64,000 nt of DNA, taken from assembly GCA_030390025.1 (NCBI GenBank), contig CM059431.1, positions 132,868,001 through 132,932,000 on the forward strand, read 5' to 3'. Of the stretch, positions 15,381 to 52,553 are shown piece after piece. The stretch is from Squalus acanthias. Its lineage: Eukaryota. Each line of letters begins with the position of its first letter. Within the stretch, counting starts at the first letter, position 1. The translations under genes were made by a program, and so were the position numbers. The notes under the pieces were generated by a model. The model was given only the letters and a program-made list of their open reading frames with translations. It ran no database searches and was not told where the DNA came from.

Positions 15381-15480
15381 AATAAATAAAAACAGAAAAT
15401 GCTGGAAATACTCAGCAGGTCAGGCAGCATCTGTAGAGAGAAACAGAGTTAACGTTTCAGGTCGGTGACCTTTCATCAGA
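15381..15480 (-). mobile_element. Hammerhead-bearing short retroposed repeat, 10-bp TSD
   Basis: TSD ACAAATATAA (15371-15380, 15481-15490); minus strand starts T-CTGATGA-A-AGGTC-ACC-GACCT-GAAA-CG-TT-AACTCTG. Confidence 0.85.
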
Positions 15481-16564
15481 ACAAATATAATCTATATTAA
15501 CAGAATGTGATCTTTAGCAACACACAATATCCAGACGTCGGCAATATTTCTTTTTAAACATGAAAGTGTTAGTTAATATCTGTGAATCCTTTGGTGCAGA
15601 GTCTAGCATTTTGATTTATCTTGTTGCTGATTTTCAAAACAGCAATAACACCATTGCCGTAAACTTAATTTTTTATGTTTTTTAAAAACATCCATATGAT
15701 TTCAATATACCTGTTATGTTGTTTGCTGTTGTGTATTTCAAGTGTTGCGTGGTTCCAGCATGTTATTATTTCATAAAATGTTGGCGTTTCTGTAACATAA
15801 AAAACTTTTTTAAAGTATGCGTTTTGACGAATCTTTATGAAGTTTTAAAAAGTGTGGTATTTTTGTTTTTAATTTAATAGTAGACGCTGAACATTCTTGT
15901 AAATTTTAGGGTCTGATTACTACCCTGTTCATTTGTTGAACACAGCGTTTTAATAAAGAAGAAAACACAGAAAATCTAATTCTTGTTGTATTGCTAACGC
16001 GATTTGTATCTGAATTGCCCTTACGTACTTTGTCCAGGTGAAGTGTAAGGTATCCTCCAAAGGGTGTCTTTGTTCGTGCTTTGAATAGAATTACTCGGAA
16101 ATCTAAATCAACCCATTGTTACATAGAGCAGAAACCTGATTTATCACATTTTATAGTGAATAGGAAAGAAGATAAAACCACTTCGTTGTCTTTTAAAAAA
16201 CATTCACGGTTCGTAAAGGGTAGCCCAGCTGAATACAATGCTGCTGTTCAAGAGAACAGATAGTTCATTGATTCGAGTAACATTTAAAAGCTGAATTTGC
16301 CTATCGAGTCGATCTGTTGGTGCAGTTTCACTAGTTAAATCCTTGTAATTCTTCCGTCTGCCCGAGGGGTACTTCTCATTTACACCTTTGTGTTTTTCCT
16401 TTACTTTACGACTCTATTCACGAGTTTATCCGTGATTGTGAAGAGGCGAGAGAGGGACAGAGATTCCCTTTCACTCAAAGCACCCTTTTATTACTTCTGT
16501 ACAGTAAGGAAGTTAGAAACCTTTAGCACCACACTTCTAAGGAATGTTCTTTAATATACATGTA

Positions 16565-16680
16565 AAGAAACTGCAAATGTTGGGAAACTAAAATATTAAA
16601 AAGAACACTGGGAATGTTTTGCTGGGAATACACAACAGGTTCGTCGATATCCGAAACGAGAAAGGACAGGTTAACGCGCT
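16565..16680 (-). repeat. Old, degraded relative of the hammerhead-bearing repeat (core lost)
   Basis: CTGCAAATGTTGGGAA...GCTGGGAATACACAACAGGT...CAGGTTAACG resembles the family body. Confidence 0.4.
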
Positions 16681-19600
16681 TACTTTTGAGAATACGTAAA
16701 ATACATCAAATCAATATTTTTTTATTAGTTCATTGAGTGTATAATTCTAAAACGCGAGTATATCACTATATTTGTGACGCACCGTTACTAGTAGAGGAAT
16801 AGGTACAATCCCGGATGCATCTAACATCACTGTTGTCTAAGTGATACACTGTTTTATCAGCAATGGATGGTGTGCTGGTCAGCTTGTGTATGCGGGAGGA
16901 TCATACCTCAAAGCAGCTATTACTAAGGCCAAATATGATAATGAAAAAAAGATTAAATAATCATTCATAGTACCACATTTTAATTTCAAACAAAAAGCTA
17001 CGTGACTTGAAGAGAACAATTAATTTCAGTTGAAAAAATTTCAAATGAATGTTTCATAAAGCTCTGCGCTAGTAATGAAAATCTATTTCTCATCCTTTTG
17101 TATTGAATATAATGTAGGTCTCCTTTTTATTAAGGAGGTAAGTAATCATGGAACCCTTGTGATTGGAAGATACATTTCAATTAATTCTGCCACAATCGTC
17201 TAATCTTTTCTTCATCAAAAGCTATTATGGTGTTAAAATTAACAATTATGCAACCAATGTCTGTCTGAATCCACAAGGGGACGTCGAAAAAGCTTCAGAT
17301 AACACGACACGTATAAATCATTCATGAGAACAATTCATGTAAGAAAAGTTATCTGTGTTTTGAATGACATTGGAAGAACTAAATGGAACTCGTTCTGTGA
17401 AGGGACATTTTAACTTCATTGTCTACCTTGGTCTTTTCTCTTTTATTTCAGTGTAATATACATTTTCAAAATTAATTAAGCATTAACAGCAAGATAAATG
17501 CTTCTCTTTTATTCAGAGAAACAGTCGCCTCATTGGTGAAAGCTTATTTCACTTGAACAGCACCATTACAATGGCCGTTGCCAGATAAGGTGAAGGATTC
17601 TTCTTTAAACTAGAAATAAACGTTTTGACAGATGGCTGGATGATTACAAAAAAATAAACCCAAAAGCCTGTAACCTGGATTTTCGTCCACTCTCGTTATA
17701 ACCCCCACAGTTTATCCCTTTGGAGTATTTTCTGTTACATGGAATAGGTGTAGTTAAAAGCACCAAAATACGTACATGACGTTTCGTAGCTTCAAACGTT
17801 GACCCATTTTATCAACATACATTTTCGTTTATGTAAAACGTTTGCCACGTGCAACACCTTTATTTACATATCCCTTTAAATGGTTGAAGATTACAAATTT
17901 AATCAACTTACCTCATAAAAGAGCAGGAGTTGTTTCATATAGATTTTGATTACCATCGAATATATTTTCCAAATATATTTCTATTCCTGTTTCCATATTT
18001 GATATGTTGGTCTGGAAATAGAAAATGTTATCAGCGTTTTATTGTAATAATGTTCTGAAACATCTATATATCTAGCCGAAACAAAAACAGAAAAATGTTG
18101 GAAATACATCTCAGGTCAGGTGAATCAGCATCAGTAAAAACAAAATACTCTAAATCAGAACCCGTTCTCAGTAAGGCTACCCCCCACACCCGACACTTTA
18201 ACGTGTCTTTTCACTTCATTGACCTGATGCATCTGATGTCCTACTTTTGTTTGAGTTTCAGTATTTATAGTTTTTTTCTATCTATATATCCATCCAAACA
18301 AAATAATATAAACTGGATCTATAATTTCTCTACAAGCAACTTCAAAATAAGCCTCTGTAAACGTCCAATAATTATCTCACAAATACTTCTTAACATCCTT
18401 CTGTCACTATCCTCTTTGCTTTCAATTATCAGTTTATTACATAAATCCACAAAACAGCTGAACCTCAAAAAGTGAATAAGAATGAAAGAAGTGCAGCATA
18501 CTAAAATAAACAGATGCTAACTGCTTTCATAACATTTGATCACATATTCCATACACAAATCTAAACTGGTAAAACTAAAATAAAATTACATACATTACAC
18601 TTTTTAAATATGTTACAAGTAATAATGATAAGATGGTAGTGATTTCAAAGTCAGGTCTCATCTTAGCATTCAGATAATGGGTATAAACTCAGCTCTGAAC
18701 CTATGGTTAAAATGCTAGCAGGATCCCTTCATTCAGCCTTGTAATCACTCCCTGCAATCCAGTTTATGTGTATTACTCACTGGATATTGATATATCCTGG
18801 TAAAATAGAATTTTGGAGACCACACACATTATGGTATGATTATCCTGCTTTATAGTGGTTGGATTGGACGTCTGATTTACTTTAAATCTCAGTGATAAAT
18901 GGCAGTGAATCATTTCCAATGTAAATGAAAGCATCTTTGGAGGTTGGTTTTATATCGGTGTGCATTTGGACACATGACAGTGTAACATGATTTTGGATTT
19001 GTGATCAAATAGTTCCATTTTCCAAGCATGGAATCTTTTCCTGCATTACTTCCATATTGTTTGCTGCATCCACCTGTTACCTGTTTCAATTTAATGATTG
19101 CTATTACATTTTCCTGTCGAGTTTATGTGTACTCATAAAAATGCACAAAAATTACAACCATGCTGGCTTCTGTTAAGAATCAGAAATGTAAACAGGGCAG
19201 CTGCACTTAGTTCAACCACATGGATTCAAACAGTGAGCCTTGGTGTGACACGCAATCTCAATATAACCATGCCATTACTTTCTAGCAACATTTCCACTTT
19301 ATGTTACAAAATCTGAAACTGCTTGGCAAATCTCAATCACGATAATAGGTAAAGTCAGCATCAATATGAAAAAAATAGTCGTGGTAATGTAAGATGAAAA
19401 CTTCAGTGACAAAACTCAAGTCTTATACAATCCCTGTGGGGATTTCAAGTTAACTGTAGAATGTTGTCACAGAGAGTGGATTTTGCATCATATTTGTGCT
19501 AGCTAGAGATCATTTACAATATTACCCTTGTTATCCATTAAGGGCAGCATGCCAGATATGTAACTCTAACATGGTTTTAGTGTTTTCCTATTGTGATTAA

Positions 19601-19799
19601 AATCAATTTTTTTTGAACTTTGTAAAAATGAAACATTTGCTTTTTTCATAGATATTTCTGTAAAATATCCCTGTGCTCAGACTGAAACTTAAAGCAGTTA
19701 ATATTTTTGTTGCACATCAGTTAAATATATATATTGCTACTATTAAATTATCAATAGCTCCCTTGATAGGTTTACTAAGTGCCTGAACCATACAATTCA

Positions 19800-20180
19800 G
19801 GAAGCTCCTAGATTTAATCCTCAATCTGTGGTGAGTTAGCTAATCTCCGTTGGGCTGGAGGTAGGCCTCAGTACCTTGGGTTAGATGGTTTCCACTCCTG
19901 ATTGCTGTTGAGGGTCTCCTGCTGGAAGTACACATGTAGATGTCAGATGAGGACAGGATCAGGCTCAGCTGTAATGCCCCCACCGCCTCCCCGCCTGCCC
20001 GCCCCTCCCCCCCCCCCCGCCCCCACCCCCGTACTGCAGTTGTATAAGATACAAACATTCACTGTCAATGTTCACACAGGAAAAAGACCGCTTAGGCAAG
20101 GTGCTGGAGGGTAAGTGACATCTGTGGATCCATATACCCCATTAAGGAGTCAACATTTTCAGCAAAGGAGGAAGAGAGGG
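19800..20180 (+). repeat. Old SINE-like repeat
   Basis: Shares GAGGACAGGAT....CTCAGCTGT.ATGCCCC with 44155-44520; degenerate B-box-like head. Confidence 0.45.
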
Positions 20181-21176
20181 AGAAAATTGATGAGAAAGCA
20201 GTCAGTATTTTTCTTTACAAATTGCCTTACTTAGGTTAGACACTATACTCAGAATTGATTCAGATCCCACCGGTGTAAGCTATAAACTCTTAGCACTATG
20301 ACACACATCTGTATAGTTTTTAATGTTTTCAACAAGGTTATTTAATTACCTGTACTTTCAAATTATGGGATGTTGGCTTACTGTCCCTTATATTCCTGCA
20401 GTAAAAAGCTAAAGGATTTTTGTTACTCTTGTAGGTATCTTTTGTTAGGATTTCATAGGGAGCCAATATCCAATGGGAAACCATTAAACCTTTGTCTGGT
20501 TAAACCGGGCATGTTTGTCCCCATGAATTTAATGAAACTAGTAATATATTTGCACATTGCACCCATCTTTCAAAGTTATGATGTAATCATATGTTGTTTT
20601 CAATCTGTCCCTTGAAATAGAAGTCAATGGAGTCTGTTTCACTTAAGTGAAAATGAGTTATATGGATAATCTCCTATCCACCTTAATTGGATAGTTTCTC
20701 AAGAGAAATAAATCCTCCTCTTGGTTCACTGCTTGTTCGTCTTACATGTATATATGGGTCCTTTCATTACATTTTATAGTTTGTAGCTTTGTAGTCCGTA
20801 GAGTGCCCTGTAAAAGCTGATGTTAATTTTTCATTTTTCTACAACAGTGTAGCCTGGGGATCAGGAACCTTTTCAATGATGAGTGCTGGATTAATAACTT
20901 TTCGTTTCTGAATCAGCGTTCCAGCAAACCAGCATGTCAGCAGCCAAAATTTGAACTAAATTTCATATGAAAAATATGGAACAATGCCAGTGAATACATT
21001 ATTCCCATTTTATCCCCAAAAAATCACTTAACGATGTATTTATTTACATTTTGATGAATTTTCCAGATTCATAAAAGTGAGGAAATATTTTTCTATTTTG
21101 GGCTTTCAGTGTCACCATCAAACACTCTTAAATCAAATATTGCATGCGCACCTACAGCATAAAGATTCTTTAAAAA

Positions 21177-21866
21177 GGGCTCGATATTGCTTAGCACCCC
21201 GTTTGGGGAGTTAACTTTTCAGGGAGTGCAAAAGAGGGAAGTGGAGCACTAAATCAAGCGCTACCACTTCCCTTAGAGCACTAAAGGGAGTGAGGGGGTG
21301 GTATCGGCAGAGCGCTGAGCAATGTTTGGGGCAGCGCTGCCGTCTTTACAGGCTCCTTCCCTCCCTTAAAGGGAAGGGCCAATGCTGTGTTGAATGAGTC
21401 TTCAGGCTGTGTCTGTTGGGCAATGGCACCTGCGCAATGAGCATAGCAGCCCCAAGCCCACTAAGAGAGTGCAGGGTTGAGCAATCACGGGGGCAAAAGA
21501 AAGCAGGAGGCACCAGAATGAGGACATAAATACATTTTGCCCTACCTGACCACCACTGCCTTTAAATAGCGCTCCCCAAGTGGCCAGCCTAGGTGACAAC
21601 GCCGCCTGTAGCTGCTGTTGTTGACGCCCGGCGATGCTGCAGGGGGTGGGAGCGAATATCACTTCCAAGGCGCTGCGCACCGGATGACGTCATGAACTTC
21701 GGGGCGCAAGAGAGCGAGGCGGTAAGTCTTAGCGTCAGCGCAAATCCATCAGGGAAGCTCGCGGGCATCGGTGAATTCACCGTGCCCGGTCGGTAACCCC
21801 TTAGCGCCCCGTTACCGTCCCCCGCAGGCGCTATTGGGAGACACAAACCAGTGGAATTTCTCCCCC
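21177..21866. mobile_element. GC-rich MITE-like element, probably Harbinger-type
   Basis: Abrupt GC-rich block in AT-rich DNA with ends GGGCTCGATATT...AATTTCTCCCC and the GATGACGTCA and CCTTAAAGGG motifs seen in the other Harbingers. No clean TSD. Confidence 0.5.
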
Positions 21867-22009
21867 ATCTTTGCCTTAACATGGAATTGAAATTGTGTTT
21901 TGTGAATGAAAGAAGTACTACTTTTTTTCAAAGACAGCTGTGTTTGTACTGAACCTGCAGTTAGCAGACAAATTGGTGACGTGGATCTAAGTTGTGCATA
22001 CTTTCTCAA

Positions 22010-23165
22010 GATCACAAGATAATTACGGATGAGGAAGGCCATTTAATTCATTCAGCCATCAGAAACAATTTGATGTTACAATGTCCTTCGCCCCCTCCCC
22101 CCCCCACCCCCGCCACCCTTGTACCATCCAATTATTTCTTAAATTGTTCCAAAGTTCGTGCCTTCACTACTCTATCTGGATGTTTATTCCACACATTAAT
22201 CACTTTTTGTGTGAAGAATTTTGTGTTATCAGTCTTTTGTTCACCTTTTACTAGTTTGAATCTGAGTCCCCTAGTTCTACTCTCACATTTTAACTTAAAG
22301 TAATATTTTGGGTTAACCTTTTCTATACCTTTACAATTTTATATATCTCTATAAGATCACCTCTTAGATGTCTTATTTGTCAGCTGAAAAGCATAACTTT
22401 CTTCATGACCCTGAACCCTGTCACCATGGATCAGCCTTGTGGCTCTTTGCGGTATCTCCAGCACTTGAATATCTCTTTTGTGTCTTGGTGGCCAGGCTGG
22501 ATGCAGCATTCAAGGTGCAGTCTGACCAGAACACTATAAAGTTTGATAGCAAAATACTGCGGAGGCTGGAAATCCAAAATAACAACAGAAAATGCTGGAA
22601 AAACTCAGCAGGCCAGGCAGCATCCATGGAGAGAGAAACAGAGTTAACGTTTCAGATCGAAGACCTTTCGTCAGATAAAGTTTGATCACTATCTCATCTG
22701 ACTTAAATTCTACTGTTTTGGCTGTGTAGTTCAACATTCTATTGGCATTATTGATTGTTACACTGCATTGGTTAGACATGTTTAGCTTTGAGTCTGCTAA
22801 GACTCTTACATCTCTTTCAACTTCATTCGTAGCTATTTCAACACCAATCATGGAGAACTCATGTCATCTATTTTTCCTTCCCATGTGTAGCACTTTGCAC
22901 TTGACTGCATTAAATGTTATTTGTCATTTGTTCTGCCCACTTTCATATCTTGTTCAATTCATTCTGTAATTTATGAGCTGCCTCCCCTGATTTCACTGCC
23001 TCTCCTATTTGGTATCATCTGGAAATTTGCCCACTTTGCATGGAGTTTCTGAGTCTCGGTCATTTATTTAAATTAGAAACAGCAGCAGTCCCAGCACTGA
23101 GCCTGGAGGCACCCCACTGAGTACTTCCCCCCACTCTGACATAACTACTCTAATGAGTGCTCACT
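22010..23165 (-). mobile_element. Old, degraded CR1 LINE
   Basis: Remnants ERDVRVLADSKLNMSNQC..ANRMLNY and SGVPPGSVLG on the minus strand; 3' hairpin near 22035. Confidence 0.8.
22548..22674 (-). mobile_element. Hammerhead-bearing short retroposed repeat, 12-bp TSD
   Basis: TSD ATAAAGTTTGAT (22536-22547, 22675-22686); minus strand starts CTGACGA-A-AGGTC-TTC-GATCT-GAAA-CG-TT-AACTCTG. Confidence 0.88.
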
Positions 23166-23835
23166 GGGCCAGAATTTACTGTAATCAGCGAATGAATGAC
23201 GTCCGCCCTTTATTAGACTTTCCCTTGCCCGTTAAATTTCCATGAGCTTTTGCATGGCAAGTTGCTGCAAGTGGGAGATGAAAATGACACAGCGCTCTCT
23301 ACAGGGCATCTGGGACTTGTGTGAACAGGCCAAGCAACTGTGCATCTCCTTAACCAAACAGATTGCAGAATCGTTAATGAACAGCACAGATTCTGAACCA
23401 GGATGTGTAGAATAATGAATTCAATGTCAAATCAGGTACAGAAAACAACATAAAGAGAGGGAAAGTGAGATTGGCTTAAGAGAGAGAGAGCGCAAAAAGA
23501 GACAGAAAGAAAAAGTAAAAAAGAAAAAATGTAATTAAAAAGGAAATCTCCAACAACAATTAAGAGCTGAAGGAATGAGAGTCCACACTTGTAACAGTTA
23601 ATTGTTAGTCCCAGAGAGGTTGTTTGGCAGTAATTAAGACTTATCACGCTGTTAAAAAAGGTACTTAGACTGACATTGACAAGCCCTAACTTTCTGTGGC
23701 GAGTTTAGTCCATATCTACGATGTAAGTACACGAACTTCACGCAGCTCAATACATTTGAATCGAGAGCCAGACGGTGAGATGCCATTTTCGCGCAGTTAA
23801 CGGACAGCAACTTCCGGATTTTTGCGTTTAACTGG
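23166..23835. mobile_element. Harbinger-type MITE (family H), right end truncated by CR1
   Basis: Starts GGGCCAGAATTT; reverse similarity to 1-726 and 42850-43130. Confidence 0.55.
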
Positions 23836-23915
23836 GACTCAACAAAATTAACATAAGCAAAATAACAGCAATGAAGAAAATAATGGCACTAAAGAGTGAC
23901 AAATCCCCAGGACCA

Positions 23916-25672
23916 AATGACACAAAACTTGGAAGTATAGTGAACAGTGAGGAGGATAGTGATAGACTTCACGAGGGCATAGACAGGCTGGTGGAATGGG
24001 CGGACACGTGGCAGATGAAATTTAACGCAGAAAAGTGCAAAGTGATACATTTTGGTAGGAAGAACGAAGAGAGGCAATATAAACTAAAGGGTACAGTTCT
24101 AAAGGGGGTGCATGAACAGAGAGACCTGGGGGTATATGTGCACAAATAGTTGAAGGTGGCAGGGCAGGTTGAGAAAGCGGTTAAAAAAGCATACGGGATC
24201 CTGGGCTTCATAAATAGAGGCATAGAGTACAAAGGCAAGGAAGTTATGATGAACCTTTCTAAAACACTGGTTTGGCCTCAGCTGGAGTACTGTGTCCAAT
24301 TCTGGGCACCGCACTTTAGGAAGGATGTGAAGGCCTTAGAGAGGGTGCAGAAAAGATTTACGAGAATGGTTCCAGGGATGAGGGACTTCAGTTATGTGGA
24401 TAGACTGGAGAAGCTTGCAGAATGGGCATATAATTGGCAAATGAAATTCAACACAGATAAATGTGAGGTATTACATTTTGGTAGGAAGAATAGGGAGGTC
24501 ACTTATTACTTGAAGGATGCAAGTCTGGGTGGGGTAGAGGGGCAAAGGGATCTCGGAGAACAAATACACAAATCACTAAAAGTAGCGACACAGGTTAACA
24601 AGGCCATAAAAAAAGCAAATGAGGCACTATGGTTTATTTCTAGAGGGATAGAATTGAAAAGTAGTGAAGTTATGCTAAATTTGTATTGAACCTTGGTTAG
24701 ACCACACTTGGAGTACTGCGTACAATTCTGGTCGTCATATTATAAAAAGGATATGGAGGCACTGGAGAGGGTGCAGAGAAGATTTACAAGGATGATACCA
24801 GAAATGCGAGGGTGAACATATCAGGAAAGGATGAACAGGCTAGGGTCTCTTTTCGCCTGAAAAGAGAAGGCTGAGGGATGACCTAATAGAGGTCTTTAAA
24901 ATCATGAAAGGTTTTAATAGAGTAGATGCAGAGAGAGTATTTCCACTTGTGGGGAAGAGCAAAACTAGAGGCCATCAATATAAGATAGTCACCAAGAAAT
25001 CCAATAGGGAATTCAGAAGAAACTTCTTTACCCAGAGAGTGGTGAGAATGTGGAACTCACTACCACAGGGAGTAGTTGAGGCAAATAGTATAGATGCATT
25101 TAATGGGAGGCTAGATAAGCATATGAGGGAGAAGGGAATAGAGCGTTATGCTGATAGAGTTAGATGAGGAAAGACGGGAGGAGGCTCGAGTGGAGCATAA
25201 ATGCCGGCATGGACTAGCTTGGGCCGAATGGCCTGTTTCTGTGCCGTATATCCTATGTAATCCTATGTAAAGCTGAGGTTGTTCTCCTTAGAGCAGAGAA
25301 GATTGAGAGAAGATTTGATAGAGGTGTTCAAAGTCATGAGGAGTCTAGACAGAGTAGATAGAAAGAAACTGTTCCCATTGGCGGAAGGGTAGAGAACCAG
25401 AGGACACAGATTTAAGGTGATTGGCAGAAGAACCAAAGGCGACATGAGGAAAAACTTTTTTATGCAGCGAGTGGTTATGATCTGGAATGCACTGCCTGAA
25501 AGGGTGGTGGAGGCAGATTCAATCGTGGCTTTCAAAAGGGAATTGGATAAGGACCTGAAGGAAAAAAATTTGCAGAGTTCTGGGGAAAGGGTGGGGGAGT
25601 GGGACGAGCTGAAGTGATCTAGAATGGGCCGAATGGCCTTCTTCTGTGCTGTAACCATTCTATGATTCTATG
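23916..25672 (+). mobile_element. CR1 LINE Y (23916-24415 + 25270-25672), inserted in CR1 X and interrupted by CR1 Z
   Basis: DTKLG...VDRLEKL resumes at 25270 and ends in an (ATTCTATG)n tail. Confidence 0.9.
24416..25269 (+). mobile_element. CR1 LINE Z, nested in Y
   Basis: Restarts at AEWAYNWQMKFN and ends with a (CCTATGTAAT)2 tail; AAGCT is duplicated at 24411-24415 and 25270-25274. Confidence 0.9.
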
Positions 25673-25673
25673 A

Positions 25674-26387
25674 TCAGATGTTTTCCATCCCAGGGTTTTA
25701 AAGGAAGTAGGTGAGCACATTGCAGATGCCCTAACTATAATCCTCCAAAGTTCTCTCGATTCAGGAACTGTTCCTTTAGATTGGAAAATTGCACATGTCA
25801 CTCCTGCTATTTAACAAAGGTGAGAGAGGGAAACCAGGGAATTATAGACTATTTAGCCTAACATCTGTTGTTGTGAAATTACTAGAGTCAATAGTTAAAG
25901 ATTGGGTGACTGAACGCCTTGAAAACTTTCAGCTGATCAGAGAGAGCCAGCATGGATCTGTGAAAGGTAGGTCATGCCTGACGGACCTGATTGAATATTT
26001 TGAGGAGGTGACTAAAGCAGTGGACAGGGGAATGTCGATGGATGTTATTTATATGGACTTCCAGAAGCCATTTGATAAAGTCCCTCATAAGAGATTGTTA
26101 ACTGAGGTTGAAGCCCATGGAATTGAAGGCAAATTATTGACCTGGTTAGGAAATTGGCAGAGTAGCAGAGAGTAGGGATAATGGGCAGTAACTCTAGTTG
26201 GCAGGATTTGACGAGCGGTGTCCCGCAGGGATCTGTGTTGGGGCCTCAACTATTCACTGTATTTATTAAGGACTTAGATGATGGGATAGAGAGCCACATA
26301 TCCAAATTTGCCAATGACACAAAGATAGGCGGCATTGTAGGCAGTGTAGATGAAAGCATAAAATTACAAAGAGACATTGATAGATTG
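25674..26387 (+). mobile_element. CR1 LINE X, RT region (other pieces at 23850-23915 and 30045-30127)
   Basis: LKSDKSPGP (23890) continues as D.FHPRVLKE (25676); SGVPQGSVLGP...FANDTK...DIDRL continues as SEWAKLWQMDFNVGKC after the Harbinger. Confidence 0.92.
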
Positions 26388-30600: not shown

Positions 30601-30611
30601 TTTCTTATATA

Positions 30612-37769: not shown

Positions 37770-37779
37770 AATATTATTT

Positions 37780-41599: not shown

Positions 41600-41885
41600 G
41601 AAGGAGGGACTGCCAGAATGTGAGGCCTAGGTGGCTGAAGGCATGGCCAGCAAAGGTGGGGTGAATAGAGGGGGGATGCACAAGAGGCCAAAATCAGGGG
41701 AATGGAAAGTTCGGGGGGATGGATGTAGCACTGGAGGAGGTTACATAGATAGGGAGGAGGTGAAGCCATAGAGAGATTTAAGCACAATGATGAGGCATTG
41801 GGGGTTCAGGACCCAATGGAGATTGGTGCAGACAGGAGTGATAGTTAAGCGGGACTTGGTGCAAATGAGTTTCAGTTTAGATGTA
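41600..41885 (-). mobile_element. L2 LINE 3' fragment
   Basis: Reverse similarity to 52554-52968 (LHW...PPYLCNLLQ). Confidence 0.7.
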
Positions 41886-42033
41886 GGAAGTAACAACGGA
41901 AGAAAAAATGGAAAGACACATGGTCATTGTCCAATGAAACTGCTTACCCCTAAGAACTATTTACAGTTTACTCTATTATATACCCTACCCAATCCACTCC
42001 AACTCCTGAGGGAGACAATGAGCCACAAATAAT

Positions 42034-42797
42034 GGCCCGAAAATTAGACCTAATACGCGAGAGTACGCACTGTGTACTCTCGCGTTTTAGGTCTCCAATT
42101 GCCGGTTTCCTGCATGCACTGCGCATGCGCGGGAAACCGGCACTTCGTGAATTCAAAAGGGGGCGGTTCCTAAGTGAACCGTGTGCGCACTACAGGCTGC
42201 GCGCACGCAGTGCACTTAGTTATTTTTGCAGCTTTGAACGCGCAGGTAAGTGTTGAAGATTTTACACATAAAGAAAGCAGGCGTAGGACCCCCTTTTAAC
42301 AAGGCAAGTAGTTAATTAAGTGTTATTTTAAATTTTTTTCAACAGGTTTATCTTTTTTAGAGACTTTAAAGAAAGGTAAGTTTATTTTTATAACTTATAA
42401 AAAGATTTTAAATTTTTTCAAAAATTTAATTTTTGGTTTAAAGTGGTTAATTTATTTAACTATACTTATTTTATTAATGTGATGGCTTTTTTAAAAATTT
42501 AATTGAGGTTTAGCTGTTCTTTTGGGGGGGTTTAGTATTCATAGCTTTGACAGCTCTTGCCGTCAAAACTATGAATGAATGATGGTGTGCTGCCATTGGC
42601 TCTAACTGAATCACGTGATCCCAGAGCTCGCACGAACTAATTGCGTCTCTGGGACACGCAAGCACTGCACGGCTGCATGTGGGACTGGCCTTGAAACTAA
42701 AGTTCGTGTGGGCCCGGAGGAAAAAGGTAGGCGCGGAGTGAGATATCGCGGGGAAGCCTTACCCCCGCGTGAACACTCACTGTTTAATTTCTGGGCC
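42034..42797. mobile_element. Harbinger-type MITE (family B)
   Basis: Ends GGCCCGAAAATT...AATTTCTGGGCC, AAT TSD, highly similar to 3732-4475 in the same orientation. Confidence 0.9.
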
Positions 42798-42849
42798 AAT
42801 ACCTCTTTGAGATACCATCTTTAAGATATTTTCTTTCCTTCTTTCTGTT

Positions 42850-43630
42850 TTGATCTCCCCATGATGTACTACATTAGAACTGTGAAACTGACAGGAACTT
42901 CTGGCATCTGCATATGCGCAGTTAAATGCGGAAATCCAGAAGTTGCTGTCAGTCATTCCCGCTCCTCCACAGGGCCGCTGTTGAACTCCTTGCAGCCGGC
43001 AATCAATGGAAATCACTGAACTGACAAGACCTTCAGCTTTTCCGCTCTAATGTCACTGTAAAAAAAATGAAGAAGCTAAGTCTTGTTCAATGAGGTGTAA
43101 CTGGGTTTTTAACGGTGTACTGAGCAATGTTCCCTTTAATTTTTTGAGGTGAGCAGCCCCTTTAAGGGGCTGCGCAGCCATTCAAAATACCACGCATGCG
43201 TAGTTTATCCCATTTAAAAAGAAAAAAAGAAAGACTTGCATTTATATAGCGCCTTTCACGGCCACCAGATGTCCCAAAGTGCTTTACAGCCAATTAAGTA
43301 CTTTTTTTTAAGTGTAGTGACTGTTGTAATGTAGGAAAATCTGGTTAGCCAGCTTGATGACATCACAGTTGCTGGACGCTAGAGATCCCCGAGACTTGCC
43401 GCCAGAATCAAATTAACATCAGGAGAGGTGAAATCCACACCACGGAGATCGCTAGATCTTTACAGGCAGCTTTCTTCGAGATCAGCAGCGAGCACCATCA
43501 CTTCGCCGCTGACCGCAAAATCCGGGTCAATATGTTTTGGTGGTGTTGGTTGAGTGAGGAATGTTGACCAAGATACTGGGACAGATCCCTGCTCTGCTTC
43601 AAAAAATGTCATGGGATGATGTGTGATCTC
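42850..43630. repeat. Patchwork of family-H MITE pieces (42850-43130, 43345-43528) and a minus-strand Deu-SINE (43220-43340, 43530-43630)
   Basis: Reverse matches to 23700-23835 and to 45900-46488; the MITE piece ends GCAAAATCCGGGTC|AAT. Confidence 0.55.
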
Positions 43631-44154
43631 CTCCCAGTATCATAAATGTCTCTAAAACTGATCATTAGGACATATGTAAGGTAGCCCGAGAGTGATTCTC
43701 CCTCTTTGTCCCCTTTCTTTGGCAAGGGACCAGGTCTTTGTTTTTCTGTCTCTCCATGACTGCATGGCTCAGGTAGCTTTTTTCTCTTTATTCTTTTCAA
43801 CTTATTTTCATTTCTTGTTTTCTTGCCTTTTATTGTCTCCAGTTTTATTCTTCTTTTCCCCAAGATTAAAAAGTAATGAACATTTTATCCAATTTTCCCC
43901 CTTTATTAGCTATTTGACTACATACCTTGACCTCTGGTTGAGAAGGTAGGAGATGGGTGATTGTGGATGTTTCATTGGGCTTCTAAAAGTCGTTGGACGG
44001 GGCCAGTAAGATCTAACTTCTGGGTGAATCTTTGCTAATTTTCCAACCAAATTTATGTCAGCTGAAATTGTGATTTGAACAGGTCTCCACTCCATGGTGC
44101 AGTGAATTAACACCTTGCACTATGGGACCTTTCTTTTTAAAATATTTCACTAGC

Positions 44155-44520
44155 CACCTCGATAACTTAGTGGTAAGTATGTAACATGTTGTAACATTGA
44201 GCCATTCAGCCCAGGAAGGTCATTAGTTTGAGTCCTTAGTCTGTGCTGAGTTTTCAGTGGAAACAGTACAATTATCCTTAGTGTCGTCAGGTTAGATAAA
44301 TCAGACAAAGTACCAACTCTTGCTGGTACATGTGTCGACAATGATTGAGGACAGGATTGTACTCAGCTGTGATGCCCCTCTCCCAACATAGTCTATTAGT
44401 CTACTAACAGTCATTAGTCTAGACTTAAAATGTGAAGAATGGTCACATGGGCAAGTTAATGGAGGGCTGTCAGTATCCATGAAACTACCTTGCCATACTT
44501 TAAACAGAAATAGGGTTACG
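44155..44520 (+). repeat. Old tRNA-head SINE-like repeat
   Basis: Degenerate A box (TAACTTAGTGG) and B box; body shared with 19800-20180 and head with 53803-53990. Confidence 0.45.
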
Positions 44521-44689
44521 GAAGAAAACTGGGAACCAATATTTTATTGACTGACAAGCATAAGCAAACAACATGAAAAAAATTCTTACATTGAATTAAA
44601 TCTGATGCAAATTTGAAAGTGGCTGAAATTGCTTGACTGTTCTGGCGATTTCCACCGCAACTCTGGTGGGGATCTAGCGGAGTGACTGC

Positions 44690-45430
44690 AAACTATCTTG
44701 TATTTATAGCCTCTAGTTTTGGATTCTCCTACAAGTGGACCATGTTCTCTACATCTACCCTGTCCAACCTATTGGTAATTTTAAAGACCTCTACCAGGTC
44801 TCCTCTAAGTCTTACGATAGCAAAATACTGCAGATGCTGGAAATCCGAAATAACAACAGAAAACGCTGGAAAAACTCAGCAGGCCAGGCAGCATCCGTAG
44901 AGAGAGAAAGAGAGTTGACGTTTCCTCTAAGTCTTCTCTTTTCTACCGATAGCTATAATCTCTCAGTTCTGGGACCATCCTTGTAAATCTTTTTTCACTT
45001 TCTCCACTACTTCTATGTCCTTTTTATAGAATGGAGACCAAAACTGTGCACAGTACTCTAAGTGTGGCCTGACCAGGGTCCTGTACAAGTTTAACATAAC
45101 TTCACTATTTTTGAATTCTATACCCCTAGATATAAATCCCAGTGCTTTGGTAGCATTTTTAATTGCTTTGCTGAACTGCAGATGTTGCTTTCAATGATTT
45201 GTTCACCTGTATCCCTAGATCCCTTTGCTCTTCTACCCCATTCAGTTTCTTATTTTCTAAGGTGTAGGTGATGTTGCTGTTTTTCCTACCAAAGTGCATC
45301 ACCTCACATTTATCTATGTTAAAGTTCATTTGCTACTTAACTGCCCAGTCTGCAAGTTTTCTAATGTCTTCTTGTATTATGTTGCATTCTTCTCCATGTT
45401 AGCTATACCCCCCAGTTTGGTACTATCTAT
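44690..45430 (-). mobile_element. Old CR1 LINE fragment
   Basis: DSTKLGGIAN and [15 protein letters not shown] remnants on the minus strand. Confidence 0.8.
44814..44922 (-). mobile_element. Hammerhead-family short retroposed repeat, 13-bp TSD, starts at the GAAA box
   Basis: TSD TCCTCTAAGTCTT (44801-44813, 44923-44935); minus strand begins (GA)AACGTCAACTCTC. Confidence 0.88.
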
Positions 45431-45899
45431 AGGTGTAGGTAGTTCTTGCACCCACCCCTTCAGTACTGACATCACTGAAAGAGGCGGTGGGATAACACCA
45501 TCCACTGGAATTCCCTCCAGTACAGCTCCATTGCCCCCAACTTTATACATGCCGAGTCTACATTCTGGTGGAAATGACGGCCCACAACATTTTGAAAGGC
45601 CAGATCCCTTCGCTCCGTGATCCTTTTCTAAATGGGCCACTTTTCTACAAATATTAAAAATCTTCCTCAAGCATTGCTGCTAATTCCTGCCTCCACCCCA
45701 CCTAGTGCACACCACAGCTGCGCTGTGAATGGTTTCATCACTTACCTGATTCATGCAAATGCTTTGCTCCCAGCAATTCAAGCAGGGTAGAGGGCACATC
45801 GTTAGTGAGCTGAAGTCCTACTCCTCCATGGTTACAGCAGTGGAGCAGGATGCTTGGATCCTTGGGGACCAAAGTTCTGATTTTTATTATTCTGATTCC

Positions 45900-46488
45900 G
45901 TCTTTTAGATGACATTAAACCGAGGCCACGTCTTCCCTCACAGGTGGACGTAAAAGATCCCATGGCATTATTTCGAAGAAGGGCAAGGAGTTCTCCTCAG
46001 TGTCCTGGCCAATATTTATCCTTCAACCAACATAACTATGACAGATTATCTGGTCAATACAACAACAACAACTTGCATTTAACAATAGTAAAACATCCCA
46101 AAGCACTTCCCAGGTGTGTTATCCAACAACATTTGACACCGAGCCACATAAGGAGATATTAGGACAGGTGGCCAAAAGCTTGGTCAAAGAGGTAGGTTTT
46201 AAGGAGCGTCTTAAGAGGGAGAGAGAGGTAGCGAGTTGGAGAGGTTTAGGGAGGGAATCCAGAGTTTAGTGGTGAACAAGACTTGGTGCGAGTTAGGATA
46301 TGGGCTGCAGGGTTTTGGATGAGTTCAATTTGATGTTTGTGGGTCCTAGCCTATGAATTGGCTGCTGTGTTTGCGACATTACCACGATGACTACACTTCA
46401 AAAGTACTTCATTGGCTGTAAAGTGCTTTGGAATGTCCTGAGGTCGTAAAAGACGCTTTATAAATGCAAGTCTTTCTTTCTTTTTTTC
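45900..46488 (+). mobile_element. Deu-domain SINE (SacSINE1-like) with a minus-strand L2 3' end inserted at ~46058-46332
   Basis: TTAAACCGAGG...AAAGATCCCATGGCA...GTGTCCTGGCCAA resembles the Deu domain; L2-like tail TATAAATGCAAGTCTTTCTTT; inner piece is the reverse of 52790-52968. Confidence 0.7.
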
Positions 46489-47250
46489 ATGTTTGAGAGC
46501 TTTCTTCACTTGCCAACTCCCAAAATAAGCAGTAAGGTAATGTTGATGGGGTGTCATATGGCAGTTGTATTCTGAAAGGGCTGTATTCTGCCCAGCAAGC
46601 TTGTGCTACTCCTCTGTAGGTCTTAAGTTTTGATACAGTTCTACTGTACTTGAGGCATATTTAAGAGTACAGATGCATATAAAATGATAAACTCCTATGC
46701 CCATATTTACAAATTTGGAAACTGCCTATGAAGATTCTGCACTGGCACCACTGTCAGGAGGGTGTAGTTACAGCGTGATAACTTTATAGAGGTACCTTCC
46801 ATTAAAAATGTGGATATAGTAATTTACAATGAAAATAAGGGCAAGGCCATGGGAGATGCACAAGTATATATAATGCACAAATGGTGTGAATTACAGAGAA
46901 AAACGTGACATTTTAGGAGACACATATCACAAGCAGAACTGATGTGTTTAATAGAGCTGGACTGCAGATCTCTGAGTTCTATACTTGTTATGGTTATTTT
47001 CATTGGTTTGATAGGCTGTCAATACTATACTGAATGGAAAATATATTTCCTTATTTCTGCAATAGGACAAATTAAATAATACAGTAACTGAAGCAGTAGC
47101 AATATCATTACAAACCTCTGAGTAATGTGGAATGTGAACAGAAACTAAGGAAATTAATAGAGTTTTTTTTTTAAAGAACTTATTATATGGAAACAATTTA
47201 ATCTTTTTTCAAATGCATTTAATTGTTTTAAAATATGCAACAAATAACAA

Positions 47251-47373
47251 AAAGGTCATCGACCGGAAACGTTAACTCTGTTTCTCTCTTCACAGATGCT
47301 GTGACCTGCTGAGTATCTCCAGCATTTTCTGTTTTTATTTCAGATTTCCAGCATCTGCAGTACTTTCTTTTTT
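47251..47373 (+). repeat. Hammerhead-family short repeat, truncated inside the CUGAUGA box
   Basis: AAAGGTCATCGACCGGAAACGTTAACTCTG followed by the family body. Confidence 0.8.
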
Positions 47374-47769
47374 CAATTAGAGTGGGTTGTTCTTGGCATT
47401 TTGCACTGTCCACTTTAAACTTGGGCATGATTGTACCTCCACATTGTACCAATGGCAGCCTGAATCAACTCAACTGAAGGCATTTACACTGCGGAACTGA
47501 GAAAGTGCTAATTATCTCACTACTGAGAGTTGGAGTTCAGATTTCTAATTTTTTTTAAATTCGCTTATGGGATGTGGGTGTCGCTGGCAAGGCCAGCATT
47601 TATTGCCCATCCCTAGTTGCCCTTGAGAAGGTGGTGGTGAGCCATCTTCTTGAGCCGCTGCAGTCCGTGTGGTGAAGATTCTCCCACAGTGCTGTTAGGG
47701 AGGGAGTTCCAGATTTTGACCCAGCGACAATATAGGATCGGCGATATATTTCTAAGTCAGGATGGTGTG

Positions 47770-49015
47770 GATGTAACTGGGAAAATAGATAAGGGAGAAC
47801 CAGTAGATGTGGTGTATTTGGACTTTCAAAAGGCTTTTGATAAGGTCCCGCATAAGAGATTAGCGTGTAAAGTTAAGGCACATGGGATTGGGGGCAAGGT
47901 ATTGACTTGGATAGAGAACTGGTTGGCGGACAGAAAGCAAAGAGTAGGAATTAATGGGTCTTTTTCCGAGTGGCAAGCAGTGACTAGTGAGGTACCGCAG
48001 GGATCGGTCCTTGGACCCCAGCTATTCACAATATACATTAATGATCTAGATAAGGGAACTAAATGTAATATCTCCAAGTTTGCAGATGACACAAAGCTGG
48101 GTGGGAGTGTGTGCTGCGAGGAGGATACCGAGAAACTCCAGGATGATTTGAACAGGTTGGGTGAGTGGGCAGAAGCGTGGCAGATGCAATATAACGTGGA
48201 TAAATGTGAGGTTATCCACTTTGGTGTCAAAAACAGAAAGGCAGACTATTATCTGAATGGCAATAGATTGGGAGAAGGGAAAGTGCAACGAGACCTGGGT
48301 GTCCTTGTGCACCAGTCGCTGAAGGTAAGCATGCAGGTGTAGCAGGCGGTGAAGAAGGCAAATGGTATGTTGGCCTTCATAGCGAAAGGGTTTGAGTATA
48401 GGAACAGGGATGTCCTGCTGCAGTTGTACAGGGCCTTTGTGAGACCACACCTTGAGTACTGTATGCAGTTTTGGTCGCCTTATCTGAGGAAGGATGTTCT
48501 TGCCATGGAAGGAGTTCAGCGAAGATTCACAAGGCTGATACCTGGGATGGCAGGAATGACATATGAGGAGAGATTGGGTCGATTGGGCTTATACTCGCTG
48601 GAGTATAGAAGAATGAGAGGGGATCTCATCGAAACATAAAATTTTGACAGGTCTGGACAAACTAGATGCAGGAAGAATGTTCCCGATGGTCGGAGAGTCC
48701 AGAACCAGGGATCATAATCTAAGGATAAGGGGTAAGCCATTTAGGACAGAAATTAGGAAGAATTTCTTCACCCAGAGAGTGGTGAACCTGTGGAATTCTC
48801 TACCACAGAAGGTAGTTGAGGCCAAGTCATTAAATATATTCAAGAATGAGTTAGATATATTTCTTAAAGCTAAAGGTATCAATTGATATGGGGAGAAGGC
48901 AGGTACAGGGTACTGAGTTTGGATGATCAGCCATGATCTCATCGAATGGTGGAGCAGGCTCGAGGGGCCGAATGGCCTACTCCTGCTCCTATCTTCTATG
49001 TTTCTATGTTTCTAT
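47770..49015 (+). mobile_element. Young CR1 LINE, 5'-truncated
   Basis: RT motifs, (ATGTTTCT)n tail, GTGTG duplicated at 47765-47769 and 49016-49020. Confidence 0.95.
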
Positions 49016-50169
49016 GTGTGTGACTTGGAGGGGAACTTGGAGGTGGTGGTGTTCCCATGTGCCTACTGCCCTTGTCCTTCTAGGTGGAAGAGGTCGCGGG
49101 TTTGGGAGGTGATGCCGAAGAAGACTTGGTGAGTTGCTGCAGTGCATCTTGTAGATGGTACACACTGTAGCCACGGTACGCCGGTGGTGGAGGGAGTGAA
49201 TGTTTAAGGTGGTGGATGGGGTGCCAATCAAATGGGCTGATTTGTCCTGGATGGTGTCGAGCTTCTTGAGTGTTGTTGCAGCTGCGTTCATTCAGGCAAG
49301 TGGAGAGTATTCCATCACATTCCTTACTTGTGCCTTGTAGATGGTGGAAAGGCTTTGGGGAGTCAGGAGGTGAGACACTCGCCACAGAATACCTAGCATC
49401 TGACCGGCTCTTGTTGCCACAGTATTGATGTGGCTGGTCCAGTTAAGTTTTTGTTCAATGGTGACCCCCCAGGATGTTGATGGTGGGGAATTCGGCGATG
49501 GTAATGCCATTGAATGTCAAGGGGAGGTGGTTAGACTCTCGTTTGTTGGAGATAGTCATTGCCCGGCACTTCTGTGGCGCGAATGTTACCTGCCACTTAT
49601 CAGCCCAAGCCAGAACGTCATCCAGGTCTTGTTGCATGCGGACATGCACTGCTTCATTATCTGAGGAGTTGTGAATGGCTCTGAATACTGTGCAGTCATC
49701 AGCGAACATCCCCATTTCTGACCTTATGTTGGAGGGAAGGTCATTGATGAAGCAGCTGAAGATGGTTGGGCCTAGGACACTGCCCTGAGGAACTCCTGCA
49801 GCGATGTCCTGGGGCTGTGATGATTGACCATCAATCACCACAACCATCTTCCTTTGTGCTAGGTATGACACCAGCCAGTGGAGCGTTTTCCCCCTGATTC
49901 CCATTGACTTCAGTTTTACTAGGGCTCCTTGATGCCACACTTGGTCAAATGCTGCCTTGATGTCAAGGGCAGTCACTCTCACCTCACCTCTGGAATTCAG
50001 CTCCTTTGTCCATGTTTGGACCAAGGTTGTAATGAGGTCTGGAGCCGAGTGGTCTTGGCGGAACCCAAACTGGGCATCAGTGAGCAGGTTATTGGTGAGT
50101 AAATGTCGTTTGATAGCACTGTCAATGACACCTTCCATTACTTTGCTGATGATTGAGAGTAGACTGATG

Positions 50170-50351
50170 ATGCTTTGTTCTCTATCTATATATGCTTTGG
50201 CGATTCTGTATCTAATTTACTTCACCTGAGGAAGGAGCAATCGATAGCTCCGAAAGCTTGTGATTTCAAATAAAACTGTTGGACTATAACCTGGTGTTGT
50301 GCGACCTCTCAATTTTGTCCACCCCAGTCCAACACCGGCATCTCCGCATCA
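50170..50351 (+). mobile_element. Penelope-like terminal fragment (~180 bp)
   Basis: Near-identical reverse complement of 60821-61002; interrupts the host LINE RT at NYRP|ISLL. Confidence 0.88.
50222..50263 (+). ncRNA. Minimal type-I hammerhead ribozyme motif
   Basis: TCAC-CTGAGGA-A-GGAGC-AATCGATA-GCTCC-GAAA-GC-TT-GTGA: stem I TCAC/GTGA, stem II GGAGC/GCTCC, palindromic AAGCTT in place of stem III. Confidence 0.8.
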
Positions 50352-51198
50352 GGGGCGGTAATTGGCAGGGTTGGATTTGTCCTGCTTTTTGTGGACAGGA
50401 CATACCTGGGCAGTTTTCCACATTGTCGGATAGATGCCAGTGTTGTCGCTGTACTGGAACAGCTTGGCTAGAGGCGCGGCTAGTTCTAGAGCACAAGCCT
50501 TTAGCACAATAGCTGGGATGTTGTCGGGGCCCATAGCCTTTGCTGTATTCAGTGAGCGCAGCCATTTCTTGATATCACGTGGAGTGAATCGAATTGGCTG
50601 AAGACTGCTTCTGTGATGGTGGCGACCTCAGGAGTAGGCCGATAAGGATCATCCACTCAGCACTTCTGGCTGAAGATGGTTGCAAACGCTTCAGCCTTGT
50701 CTTTTGCACTCACGTGCTGGGCTTCACCATCATTGAGGATGGGGATATTCGTGGAGCCTCCTCCTCCTGTTAGTTGTTTAATGGTCAACCACCATTCACG
50801 ACTGGATGTGACAGGACTGCAGAGCTTTGATCTGATCTGTTAATTGTGGGATCTCTTCGCCCTATCTATAGCATGCTGCTTCTGCTTTTTAGCATGCGTG
50901 TTGCAGCTTCCCCAGGTTGGCACCTCATTTTTAGGTATGCCTGGTGCTGCTCCCGGCATGCTCTTCTACACTCCTTATTGAACCAGGGTTGGTCCCCTGG
51001 CTTGATGGTAATGTTAGAGTGAGGGATATGCCGGGCCATGAGGTTACAGATTGTGGTGGAATACAATTCTGCTGCTGCTGATGGCCCACAGCGCCTCATG
51101 GATGCCCAGTTTTGAGCTGCCAAATCTGTTCTGAATCTATCCCATTTAGCACGGTGGTAGTGCCACACAACACGATGGAGGGTGTCCTCAGTGTGAAG

Positions 51199-51284
51199 AC
51201 GACAACACCCAGCTCTACCTCACCACCACTTCTTTTGACCCCTCCACATTGCTTGTCCGACATCCAATATTGGATGAGCAGAAA
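51199..51284 (+). mobile_element. L2 RT fragment
   Basis: DNTQLYL (DDTQLY) and CLSDIQYWMSRN. Confidence 0.6.
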
Positions 51285-52553
51285 TGATGTAGCTTCTACA
51301 GCTTTTTGGGGCAGCATATTCCATGGACCTACCACCCTCTGAGTGAAGTAGTTCCTTCTCATCTCAGTTTTGAAAGAGCAGCCCCTTATTCTAAGACTAT
51401 GCCCCCCTAGTTCTAGTTTCACCCATCATCGGGAACATCCTCCCCGCATCCACCCGATCCAACCCCTTCACAATCTTATATGTTTCAATAAGATCGCCTC
51501 TCATTCTTCTGAACTCCAATGAGTAGAGTCCCAATCTACCCAACTTCTCCTCATATGTCCATCCCCATATCCCCAGGATTAACCGAGTGAACCTTCTTTG
51601 TACAGACTCGAGAGCAAGTATGTCTTTTCTTAAGAAATAACAACAGAAAACGCTAGAAAAACTCAGCAGGCCAGGCAGCATCCGTGGAGAGAGAAAGAGA
51701 GTTAACGTTTCAGGTCGATGACCTTTCAACCAGAGTCTTTTCTTAAGTATGGACACCAAAACTGTATGCAGTATTCCAGGTGCGGTCTCACCAATACCTT
51801 GTACAACTGAAGCAAAACCTCCCTATTTTTATATTCTATCCCCCTAGCAATGAAAGCCAACATTCCATTGGCCTTCTTAATCACTTGCTGCACCTGCATA
51901 CTAACCTTTTGAGTTTCGTGCACCAGGACCCCCAGATCCCTTTGTACTTCAGTACTTTCCAGTTTCTTGCCATTAAGATAATAACTTGCTCTACTATTTT
52001 TCCTGCCAAAGTGCATAACCTCACACTTTCCAGTATTGTATTCCATCTGCCAAATCTCTGCCCACTTACTTAGCCTGTCTATGTCCCCTTGCAGATTTTT
52101 TATGTCCTCCTCACTCACTACTTTCCCTCTCATCTTAGTATCATCTGCAAACTTTGATATGTTACACTCGGTCCCCTCCTCCAAATCGTTAATATAGATT
52201 GTAAAGAGTTGGGGACCCAGCACTGACCCCTGCGGAACACCACTAGTTACTGATTGCCAGTCTGAGAATGAACCATTTATCCCAACTCTCTGCCTTCTGT
52301 TAGATAGCCAATCCTCTATCCATGCCAGAATATTACCCCCAATCCCGTGATTTTTTATCTTAAGCAATAATCTTTTGTGTGGCACCTTGTCAAATGCCTT
52401 TTGGAAGTCTAAATACACCACATCCACTGGTTCCCCTTTATCCACCCTGTATGTTACTTCCTCAAAGAACTCCAGCAAATTTGTCAAACATGACTTCCCC
52501 TTCATAAAACCATGCTGACTTTGTCCTATTAAATTATGATTATCCAAATGTCC
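51285..52553 (-). mobile_element. CR1 LINE ORF2 fragment
   Basis: ORF 51726..52547 RT motifs, continuing in 51397..51634. Confidence 0.95.
51635..51734 (-). mobile_element. Hammerhead-family short retroposed repeat, 13-bp TSD
   Basis: TSD GTCTTTTCTTAAG (51622-51634, 51735-51747); minus strand starts T-CTGGTTGA (mutated core)-A-AGGTC-ATC-GACCT-GAAA-CG-TT-AACTC. Confidence 0.88.

What the first reader, a model, noticed from the sequence alone, without database searches (positions are those of the whole stretch)
15381..51734. Independent insertions start at the same point, the beginning of the ribozyme core
Seen: copies at 15480, 22674 and 51734 have different TSDs yet all begin (T)CTG of the CUGANGA box. 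Two others begin within the core (47251 just before stem II, 44922 at GAAA), while 3' ends vary. All span the predicted cleavage site rather than starting at it. Inference: the template was uncleaved or re-ligated/circular RNA and reverse transcription stops at the folded core. Such copies lose most or all of the 5' strand of stem I and would be catalytically weak or dead. One or two bases of microhomology blur the exact ends.
Basis: partly seen in the sequence, partly recalled or inferred. Interest (0 to 1): 0.7.

Follow-up and report, generated by a model that had tools for sequence, protein, structure and literature searches.

The report
Penelope stubs end at likely promoter
These short repeats are clipped ends of a very common Penelope-type jumping gene in a shark-like genome; about a quarter of sampled copies begin within a few bases of the front of its hammerhead ribozyme motif and few begin at the predicted cut site, likely because the copying enzyme runs off the start of an uncut RNA that begins there rather than stalling on the folded ribozyme.

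Summary
The repeats are 5'-truncated copies of a Neptune-type Penelope-like retroelement whose pseudo-LTR carries a minimal hammerhead (C of CUGA = +1, predicted cut after +29). The clustering is real but is a zone, not a point. In 111 arms sampled without 5'-end bias, 29 start at -7..+4, 16-fold over background; the cut site (2 ends) and the fold's 3' edge (5 ends) are at background. The mode is -3/-4. About 72% of arms spanning the cut site keep the stem I 5' strand. An intact template is supported. A stall at the folded core is not: reverse transcriptase arrives from the 3' side and has unwound the motif by +1. The zone coincides with an initiator-like CCAGTTC and an AT-rich box about 31 nt upstream, so run-off at the RNA's start after internal priming at +98 or +131 is most likely (0.6). 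A cap signature was inconclusive, and no RNA data showed a start. The scan noted this hotspot before, in this genome and at least eight others. I did not find it in print.

The parts
15384..15482 (-). Short Penelope-like copy, element positions -3..+98; 10-bp TSD overlapping the start by 2 nt (TSD-defined start T-1 at 15480)
22545..22675 (-). Short copy, -1..+130; 12-bp TSD; hammerhead core from 22674, predicted cut between 22646 and 22645
51633..51734 (-). Short copy ending at +100; 13-bp TSD; start ambiguous (-1 with a damaged CUGANGA box, or +5 with 6 extra bases)
47251..47372 (+). Short copy, +7..+130; no adjacent TSD found
44813..44924 (-). Short copy, +22..+133; 13-bp TSD overlapping the start by 2 nt; inserted in another repeat
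5031..5253 (+). 5' part (about -214..+29) of a longer copy with the full stem I strand, initiator-like motif and AT-rich box; counter-example to the fixed start
6141..6245 (+). 3' part (+28..+132) of the same copy, separated by a later ~890-bp insert with inverted-repeat ends
1747..1874 (-). Old diverged relative (72% identity), about -2..+126

Best explanation
The short repeats are 5'-truncated insertions of a Neptune-type Penelope-like retroelement whose left ends pile up just in front of the hammerhead motif, likely because the element's RNA starts there (about A-4) and reverse transcription, likely primed internally at +131 or +98 of that uncut RNA, runs off its 5' end after 100-135 bases. 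Shown: element identity, the zone of ends, the two 3' end sites, TSDs with a mode of 14 bp, frequent head-to-head two-arm insertions, and no excess of ends at the cut site or the fold's 3' edge. Inferred: a promoter (AT-rich box near -31 from A-4, initiator-like CCAGTTC) sets the RNA start. The cDNA end then joins the target through 1-4 nt of microhomology, which smears the ends from about -7 to +4. When both target strands prime, two short cDNAs join head to head through the motif's own inverted repeats, which gives the extra ends at +5..+17. Copies that run further upstream would come from the downstream pseudo-LTR or read-through RNA, or from a template jump.
For: Hazard 16-fold in -7..+4; background at +26..+33 and +18..+36. 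The excess also holds in simple, non-inverted copies: 6 of 22 at risk in set A. Genome-wide survival of the +20..+44 anchor (56,713 matches), corrected for mutation: about 0.91 at +5, 0.83 at +1, 0.72 at -4, 0.63 at -8, 0.54 at -25. 2,991 matches break at -3, and 6 of 9 inspected were true ends; 1,055 + 735 break at -4 with G or A before it. In contigs of a large run from a coded organism, the best-supported 5' loose ends inside the motif lie at A-4 (168) and G-3 (209). The initiator pattern YYANWYY (recalled consensus) with A at -4 fits 36 of 38 distinct long references. An AT-rich TTAAA/TTTTA box starts at -28..-36 in 29 of 38 by regex, and the rest show a similar box by eye. The ORF is open from +1/+4 through the tail into the protein, so the mRNA must start upstream of it. 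In the anole element RT initiates internally near the ORF start, on both target strands, from uncleaved RNA (PMC11167929, parts 1-2). Rotifer pLTRs carry a putative TATA box and Inr (PMC3846280, passages). Short copies match several different long subfamilies at 89-100%, and their flanks are unrelated (1 chance cross-hit among 20).
Against: No RNA start was observed: only contigs were available, the RNA status of the runs is a guess, and the depth step at -2 is as large in the presumed DNA runs (6-11x) as in the presumed RNA runs (6-11x). The cap test was inconclusive. G before A-4 exceeds A (1,055 vs 735, against TSD composition G 0.20, A 0.34), but of 20 such loci only 3 had a clean untemplated G and 2 had it inside a longer insert; 7 were target-templated, 5 came from the inverted arm, 2 were unclear and 1 was a point mutation. 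No matched A-class sample was read. The peak is broad (+4..-7) with a shoulder to -17. None of the 3 copies that continue into the ORF starts at -4 (-331, -180, +79). In D. virilis Penelope the start lies 46 bp before a 75-bp intron whose end maps to helix I (PMC2377424 passages; PMC4209133), so there the RNA does not start at the ribozyme.
Confidence: 0.6

Rival explanations
1. The zone is made at the joining step, not by the RNA's end: the self-complementary CAG-TT-CTG, stem I and stem II sequences let cDNA ends fold back or anneal to a second cDNA or to the target, so junctions are captured there.
For: 22 of 50 young insertions are head-to-head, and 11 of the 12 set A ends at +5..+17 belong to them; many junctions overlap at these inverted repeats. 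11 of 14 simple hot-zone copies with a TSD of 8 bp or more overlap it by 1-4 nt. Self-priming was proposed for rotifer PLE palindromes (PMC3846280, passages).
Against: Simple copies with ordinary TSDs and no inverted arm show the -7..+4 excess too (6 of 22 at risk), and a target cannot supply complementarity at one element position only. Predicted cDNA hairpins are weak (about -5 kcal/mol over the modelled stretch) and do not change at -4.
Confidence: 0.15
2. Reverse transcriptase stalls on the folded ribozyme or on a protein bound to it, on uncut or re-ligated RNA that extends further upstream.
For: Ends are confined to the 5' half of the motif. The monomer is predicted to form a long hairpin from -5 to +36 (-11.7 kcal/mol, against -6.5 for the hammerhead stems). 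The anole ribozyme is protein-assisted (PMC11167929).
Against: A structure blocks RT at its 3' edge, and +18..+36 has 5 ends in 1,883 nt, the background rate. By +1 both helices are already unwound, and the region upstream of -5 is predicted to be mostly unpaired.
Confidence: 0.12
3. The pyrimidine tract plus CAG at -5..-3 is the 3' splice site of a pseudo-LTR intron, and splicing factors bound there, or a spliced junction at -2, end the cDNA.
For: The sequence reads as an acceptor. In D. virilis Penelope the intron's end maps to the 5' end of helix I (PMC4209133). -2 lies inside most homology-to-TSD intervals.
Against: No upstream element sequence is joined to the short copies (0 hits among 20 flanks). 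Some copies hold G-3 or more that the target did not supply (L192, L295). No GT..AG joint ending at -2 was among the joints shown (174 and 8 more not shown). G-3 is the least conserved base of -5..-1 (49 of 54, against 53-54), as the free N of an initiator allows but an acceptor does not; this is weak.
Confidence: 0.1
4. The short copies descend from one non-autonomous master element that itself began at the core.
For: Shared start zone and length of 100-135 bp. One separately amplified inverted composite was found in the random sample (6 arms, dropped).
Against: Short copies carry the diagnostic variants of several long subfamilies, their starts differ by several bases, and their TSDs and flanks are independent.
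Confidence: 0.03

Closest known systems
EN+ Penelope-like elements, Neptune type (PMC8557442, passages; PMC3846280, passages)
   Same: C-terminal GIY-YIG endonuclease, CX2-5CxxC linker, heavy 5' truncation, partial tandem pseudo-LTR, adjacent inverted 5'-truncated copy, 30-40 bp tail, TSDs, hammerhead in the pLTR.
   Different: The passages I read describe 5' truncation as variable and give no preferred end point; here about a quarter of sampled arms end in an 11-nt zone at the front of the hammerhead.
Poseidon element PAc of Anolis carolinensis (PMC11167929, parts 1-2 of 4)
   Same: ORF starts within the hammerhead; two RT start sites bracket the tail (here about +98 and +131); both target strands can be primed; uncleaved RNA is the template.
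   Different: Different clade; the parts read do not map the transcription start or genomic 5' ends, and propose a multi-copy mRNA.
Minimal hammerheads of metazoan PLE pLTRs (PMC4209133, parts 1-2 of 4)
   Same: Type I, 4-bp helix I, palindromic minimal helix III, massive dispersed single copies regarded as truncated PLEs.
   Different: That paper proposes self-cleavage and circularisation of the template; the insertion ends here show no trace of a cleaved template.
D. virilis Penelope promoter (PMC2377424, passages)
   Same: Pol II promoter with Inr inside the pLTR drives the downstream ORF.
   Different: There the start is 46 bp before a 75-bp intron that ends at helix I; here the inferred start is at helix I itself and no intron was seen.
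Minus-strand strong-stop DNA of LTR retroelements (recalled, no call)
   Same: Works like it if the inference holds: priming near the RNA 5' end and run-off at the cap.
   Different: Target-primed rather than tRNA-primed, inserted directly into the genome; no strand transfer was shown.

Membership tests
EN+ Penelope-like element | Single ORF with RT and C-terminal GIY-YIG endonuclease | tested here: met
   Pfam PF01541 GIY-YIG E=1.2e-4 on L203:241-1125. A YIDD motif lies in the upstream frame, but that 221-aa piece had no Pfam hit and no intact full-length ORF was fetched.
EN+ Penelope-like element | Pseudo-LTR from a partial tandem ahead of the ORF | tested here: met
   L209 has 331 nt of 3' UTR, the hammerhead and tail, then the ORF N-terminus in frame.
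EN+ Penelope-like element | Adjacent inverted 5'-truncated copy and 30-40 bp tail | tested here: met
   22 of 50 young insertions are head-to-head; 15 of 21 measured inverted arms end at +94..+104, against +131 for the forward arm.
EN+ Penelope-like element | Hammerhead motif in the pLTR | tested here: met
   CUGANGA, 5-bp stem II, GAAA, AACGUU palindrome, 4-bp stem I, conserved in 54 long copies. Rfam gathering scan of the window found nothing.
Neptune clade | CX2-5CxxC linker between RT and EN | tested here: met
   CKRRRCNTC just before the GIY-YIG domain; motif as given in PMC8557442 passages.
Neptune clade | RT phylogeny groups with Neptune | not tested
   No tree built.
Active hammerhead ribozyme | Self-cleavage after GUU(+29) | not testable with these tools
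   Monomer predicted to prefer a non-catalytic hairpin; insertion ends show no cleaved template.
Pol II TATA/Inr core promoter | Capped transcripts starting at the Inr A | tested here: inconclusive
   Motifs and spacing fit. Cap-G test weak. Contig data cannot show starts.
Non-LTR retrozyme | Tandem hammerhead-bearing monomers | tested here: not met
   Window copies are solo insertions kilobases apart; definition from bioRxiv 10.64898/2026.07.22.740005, part 1 of 5.

The most novel reading that the evidence does not exclude
The short copies are stranded 'strong-stop' products of Penelope replication. The transcript is capped at the first base of the hammerhead, the enzyme primes at +98 or +131 near the RNA's 5' end and runs off the cap, and it normally jumps to the matching sequence at the RNA's 3' end (possibly set by ribozyme cleavage at +29), which would regenerate the pseudo-LTR much as retroviruses rebuild LTRs.
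Probability: 0.2. Interest if true: 0.8.

Novelty: new variant of a known kind. Interest (0 to 1): 0.45.

Why it matters
How Penelope-like elements regenerate their pseudo-LTRs and what their hammerhead does are open questions (stated as such in PMC2377424 and PMC8557442 passages). Thousands of genomic ends act as a record of the template: it was uncut, and it likely began at the ribozyme's first helix. That turns the questions into one cheap test, mapping capped 5' ends, and predicts a short run-off cDNA in vitro. The individual window copies are ordinary dead insertions.

Tried and rejected
Rfam scan of the window: no hit. The first genome search was biased, because the query began at the copy's own 5' junction; it was used only to find long copies. 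A 65-nt tail query returned nothing because common words are skipped. RNA evidence: all listed runs were contigs; no start or end table, no acceptor joint among those shown, and the depth step is also in presumed DNA runs, so none of it counts for or against transcription. Cap signature: inconclusive. Strand-transfer test by four-gamete incompatibility in 54 long copies: across the hammerhead 59 of 432 pairs, upstream-upstream 206 of 1,128, downstream-downstream 0 of 36; no specific break. A spliced exon ahead of short copies: none among 20 flanks. My early label 'Poseidon' was dropped for Neptune after the linker motif. The apparent start of the 6141 piece near the cut site is an artefact of a later insertion. 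No intact full-length element was fetched, so the RT domain and the fraction of full-length copies starting at -4 remain open. Supplements of PMC11167929 (Fig. S2 end maps) and PMC4209133 were not read and may bear on novelty; Arkhipova 2006 and 2017 and Lunse 2017 were not seen (names recalled).

Full report
What the repeat is. The window lies at G000:C7:132868001-132932000 in a 3.7-Gb genome; 'shark-like' is my recalled impression of the repeats, echoed by earlier scan notes, and comes from no naming call. Longer relatives of the ~130-bp repeat continue upstream through a 3' UTR of about 300 nt into an ORF end. That ORF carries a CKRRRCNTC linker and a GIY-YIG domain (Pfam PF01541 E=1.2e-4), which marks a Neptune-type Penelope-like element. 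Three sampled copies continue downstream into the ORF start, and the frame is open from the CUGA box through the tail. The hammerhead is a minimal type I motif: stem I AGUU(-4..-1) with AACU(+30..+33), CUGANGA from +1, a 5-bp stem II at +9..+21, GAAA at +22, a palindromic AACGUU and a predicted cut after +29. Rfam found nothing at gathering level.

The window copies. Of the three named copies two are confirmed (15480: homology from -3, TSD-defined -1; 22674: -1 and +1). The third (51734) has a TSD followed by TCTG but a broken box, so it is ambiguous. 44922 is confirmed at GAAA. 47251 starts at +7 without an adjacent TSD. The 3' ends are not free: they lie near +98 or +131.

Unbiased sampling. 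Set A: the first 50 of 4,105 exact matches to a 42-nt tail pattern, all on contig 1, anchored only at the 3' end. Set B: 160 evenly spaced 10-kb stretches on 11 contigs gave 95 anchor clusters. I dropped 28 that were short or under 88% identical and 6 arms of a separately amplified composite, leaving 61 arms. Set C (30 loci anchored at +20) served for references and calibration only. 5' ends were mapped against 42 long copies. In set A, 0 of 44 at risk ended at +18..+33, 12 of 44 at +5..+17 (11 of them head-to-head arms) and 11 of 32 at +4..-7; among simple copies, 6 of 22 ended at +4..-7. In set B, 18 of 50 ended at +4..-7. Pooled: 29 ends in 772 nt at risk against 37 in 16,112 (16-fold, P 3e-25, zone chosen after the fact); cut site 2 in 797; 3' edge of the fold 5 in 1,883. 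TSD length peaks at 14 bp (27 of 67 TSDs of 10 bp or more, some events counted twice). 22 of 50 young insertions are head-to-head.

Genome-wide counts. Of 56,713 exact matches to a +20..+44 anchor, 48,371 keep +5..+8, 43,891 keep +1..+4, 36,623 keep -4..-1, 33,495 keep -8..-5 (some double counts) and 28,073 keep a probe near -25. Dividing by the match rate in 47 long copies (42-44 of 47) gives about 0.91, 0.83, 0.72, 0.63 and 0.54 (each uncertain by a few points). The loss is steepest from +1 to -8. Homology breaks at -3 in 2,991 matches (6 of 9 inspected were true ends, 3 were point mutations), and at -4 in 1,055 with G and 735 with A in front (T not counted). So the mode is -3/-4, with 1-4 nt of microhomology moving TSD-defined starts to -3..+3.

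Mechanism. The template was intact at the cut site. A stall on the fold predicts ends at its 3' edge, which are absent, and the region upstream of -5 is predicted to be largely unpaired. The zone coincides with an initiator-like CCAGTTC (A at -4; 36 of 38 long references) and an AT-rich box about 31 nt upstream kept across divergent subfamilies (both consensus patterns recalled). In the anole Poseidon element, RT starts internally about 111-118 nt into the ORF, on both strands, from uncleaved RNA. Priming at +98 or +131 on an RNA that starts at -4 would give these 100-135 bp pieces, and two such cDNAs joined at the motif's inverted repeats would give the palindromes. I noted this reading before looking at earlier scan notes, which report the same in at least eight genomes and in this one. 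Those notes are not evidence; they gave me the TATA, cap and Neptune leads.

Results against. No RNA start was seen. The cap test gave only 3 clean untemplated G in 20 loci. The peak is broad. None of 3 ORF-bearing copies starts at -4. The same bases read as a splice acceptor, and in D. virilis the intron ends at helix I with the start further upstream. No chimera signal supports a template jump.

Literature. Read: PMC11167929 parts 1-2 of 4; PMC4209133 parts 1-2 of 4; bioRxiv 10.64898/2026.07.22.740005 part 1 of 5; passages of PMC2377424, PMC8557442 and PMC3846280. Truncation, inverted copies, tail, pLTR promoter and minimal hammerheads are all described. A preferred 5' end at the hammerhead's front was not found in these or in the listings; subscription papers and supplements were not seen.

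Verdict. A real, strong hotspot in a known kind of element. Run-off at a transcription start is the best explanation (0.6) and is directly testable. Interest 0.45.

Noticed in passing
window 5254-6140: About 890-bp insert with imperfect terminal inverted repeats, DNA-transposon-like, landed at the hammerhead's palindromic cut-site region and split a Penelope copy.
   Followed up: partly
L037, L043, L068, L074 (arms B3/4, B9/10, B20/21, B25/27): A head-to-head Penelope palindrome with the same junction (about +15/+50) and shared flanks of up to 970 nt, apparently captured and amplified inside another repeat.
   Followed up: partly
L191, L192, L196, L219, L234, L242: A young subfamily with CCGA in place of CUGA in the catalytic box and a stem II one base shorter is still multiplying, which suggests that ribozyme activity is not needed for mobility.
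   Followed up: no
L209:1412-1945: The ORF frame opens inside the hammerhead: ATG at +4 in one subfamily, ACG at that place in others, with a second in-frame ATG near +52.
   Followed up: partly
L209:1411-1542 and 1407-1508, run X9: Contig joints go back from the two tail ends (+131, +97) to about -1 and -5: short tandem or looped copies of the run-off unit.
   Followed up: no
window 61129-61845: A 289-bp inverted repeat, 99% complementary, with a 139-nt spacer; not matched by the Penelope references.
   Followed up: no
window 50170-50351 and 60821-61002: A 182-bp inverted pair at 99% identity 10 kb apart, a very young repeat.
   Followed up: no
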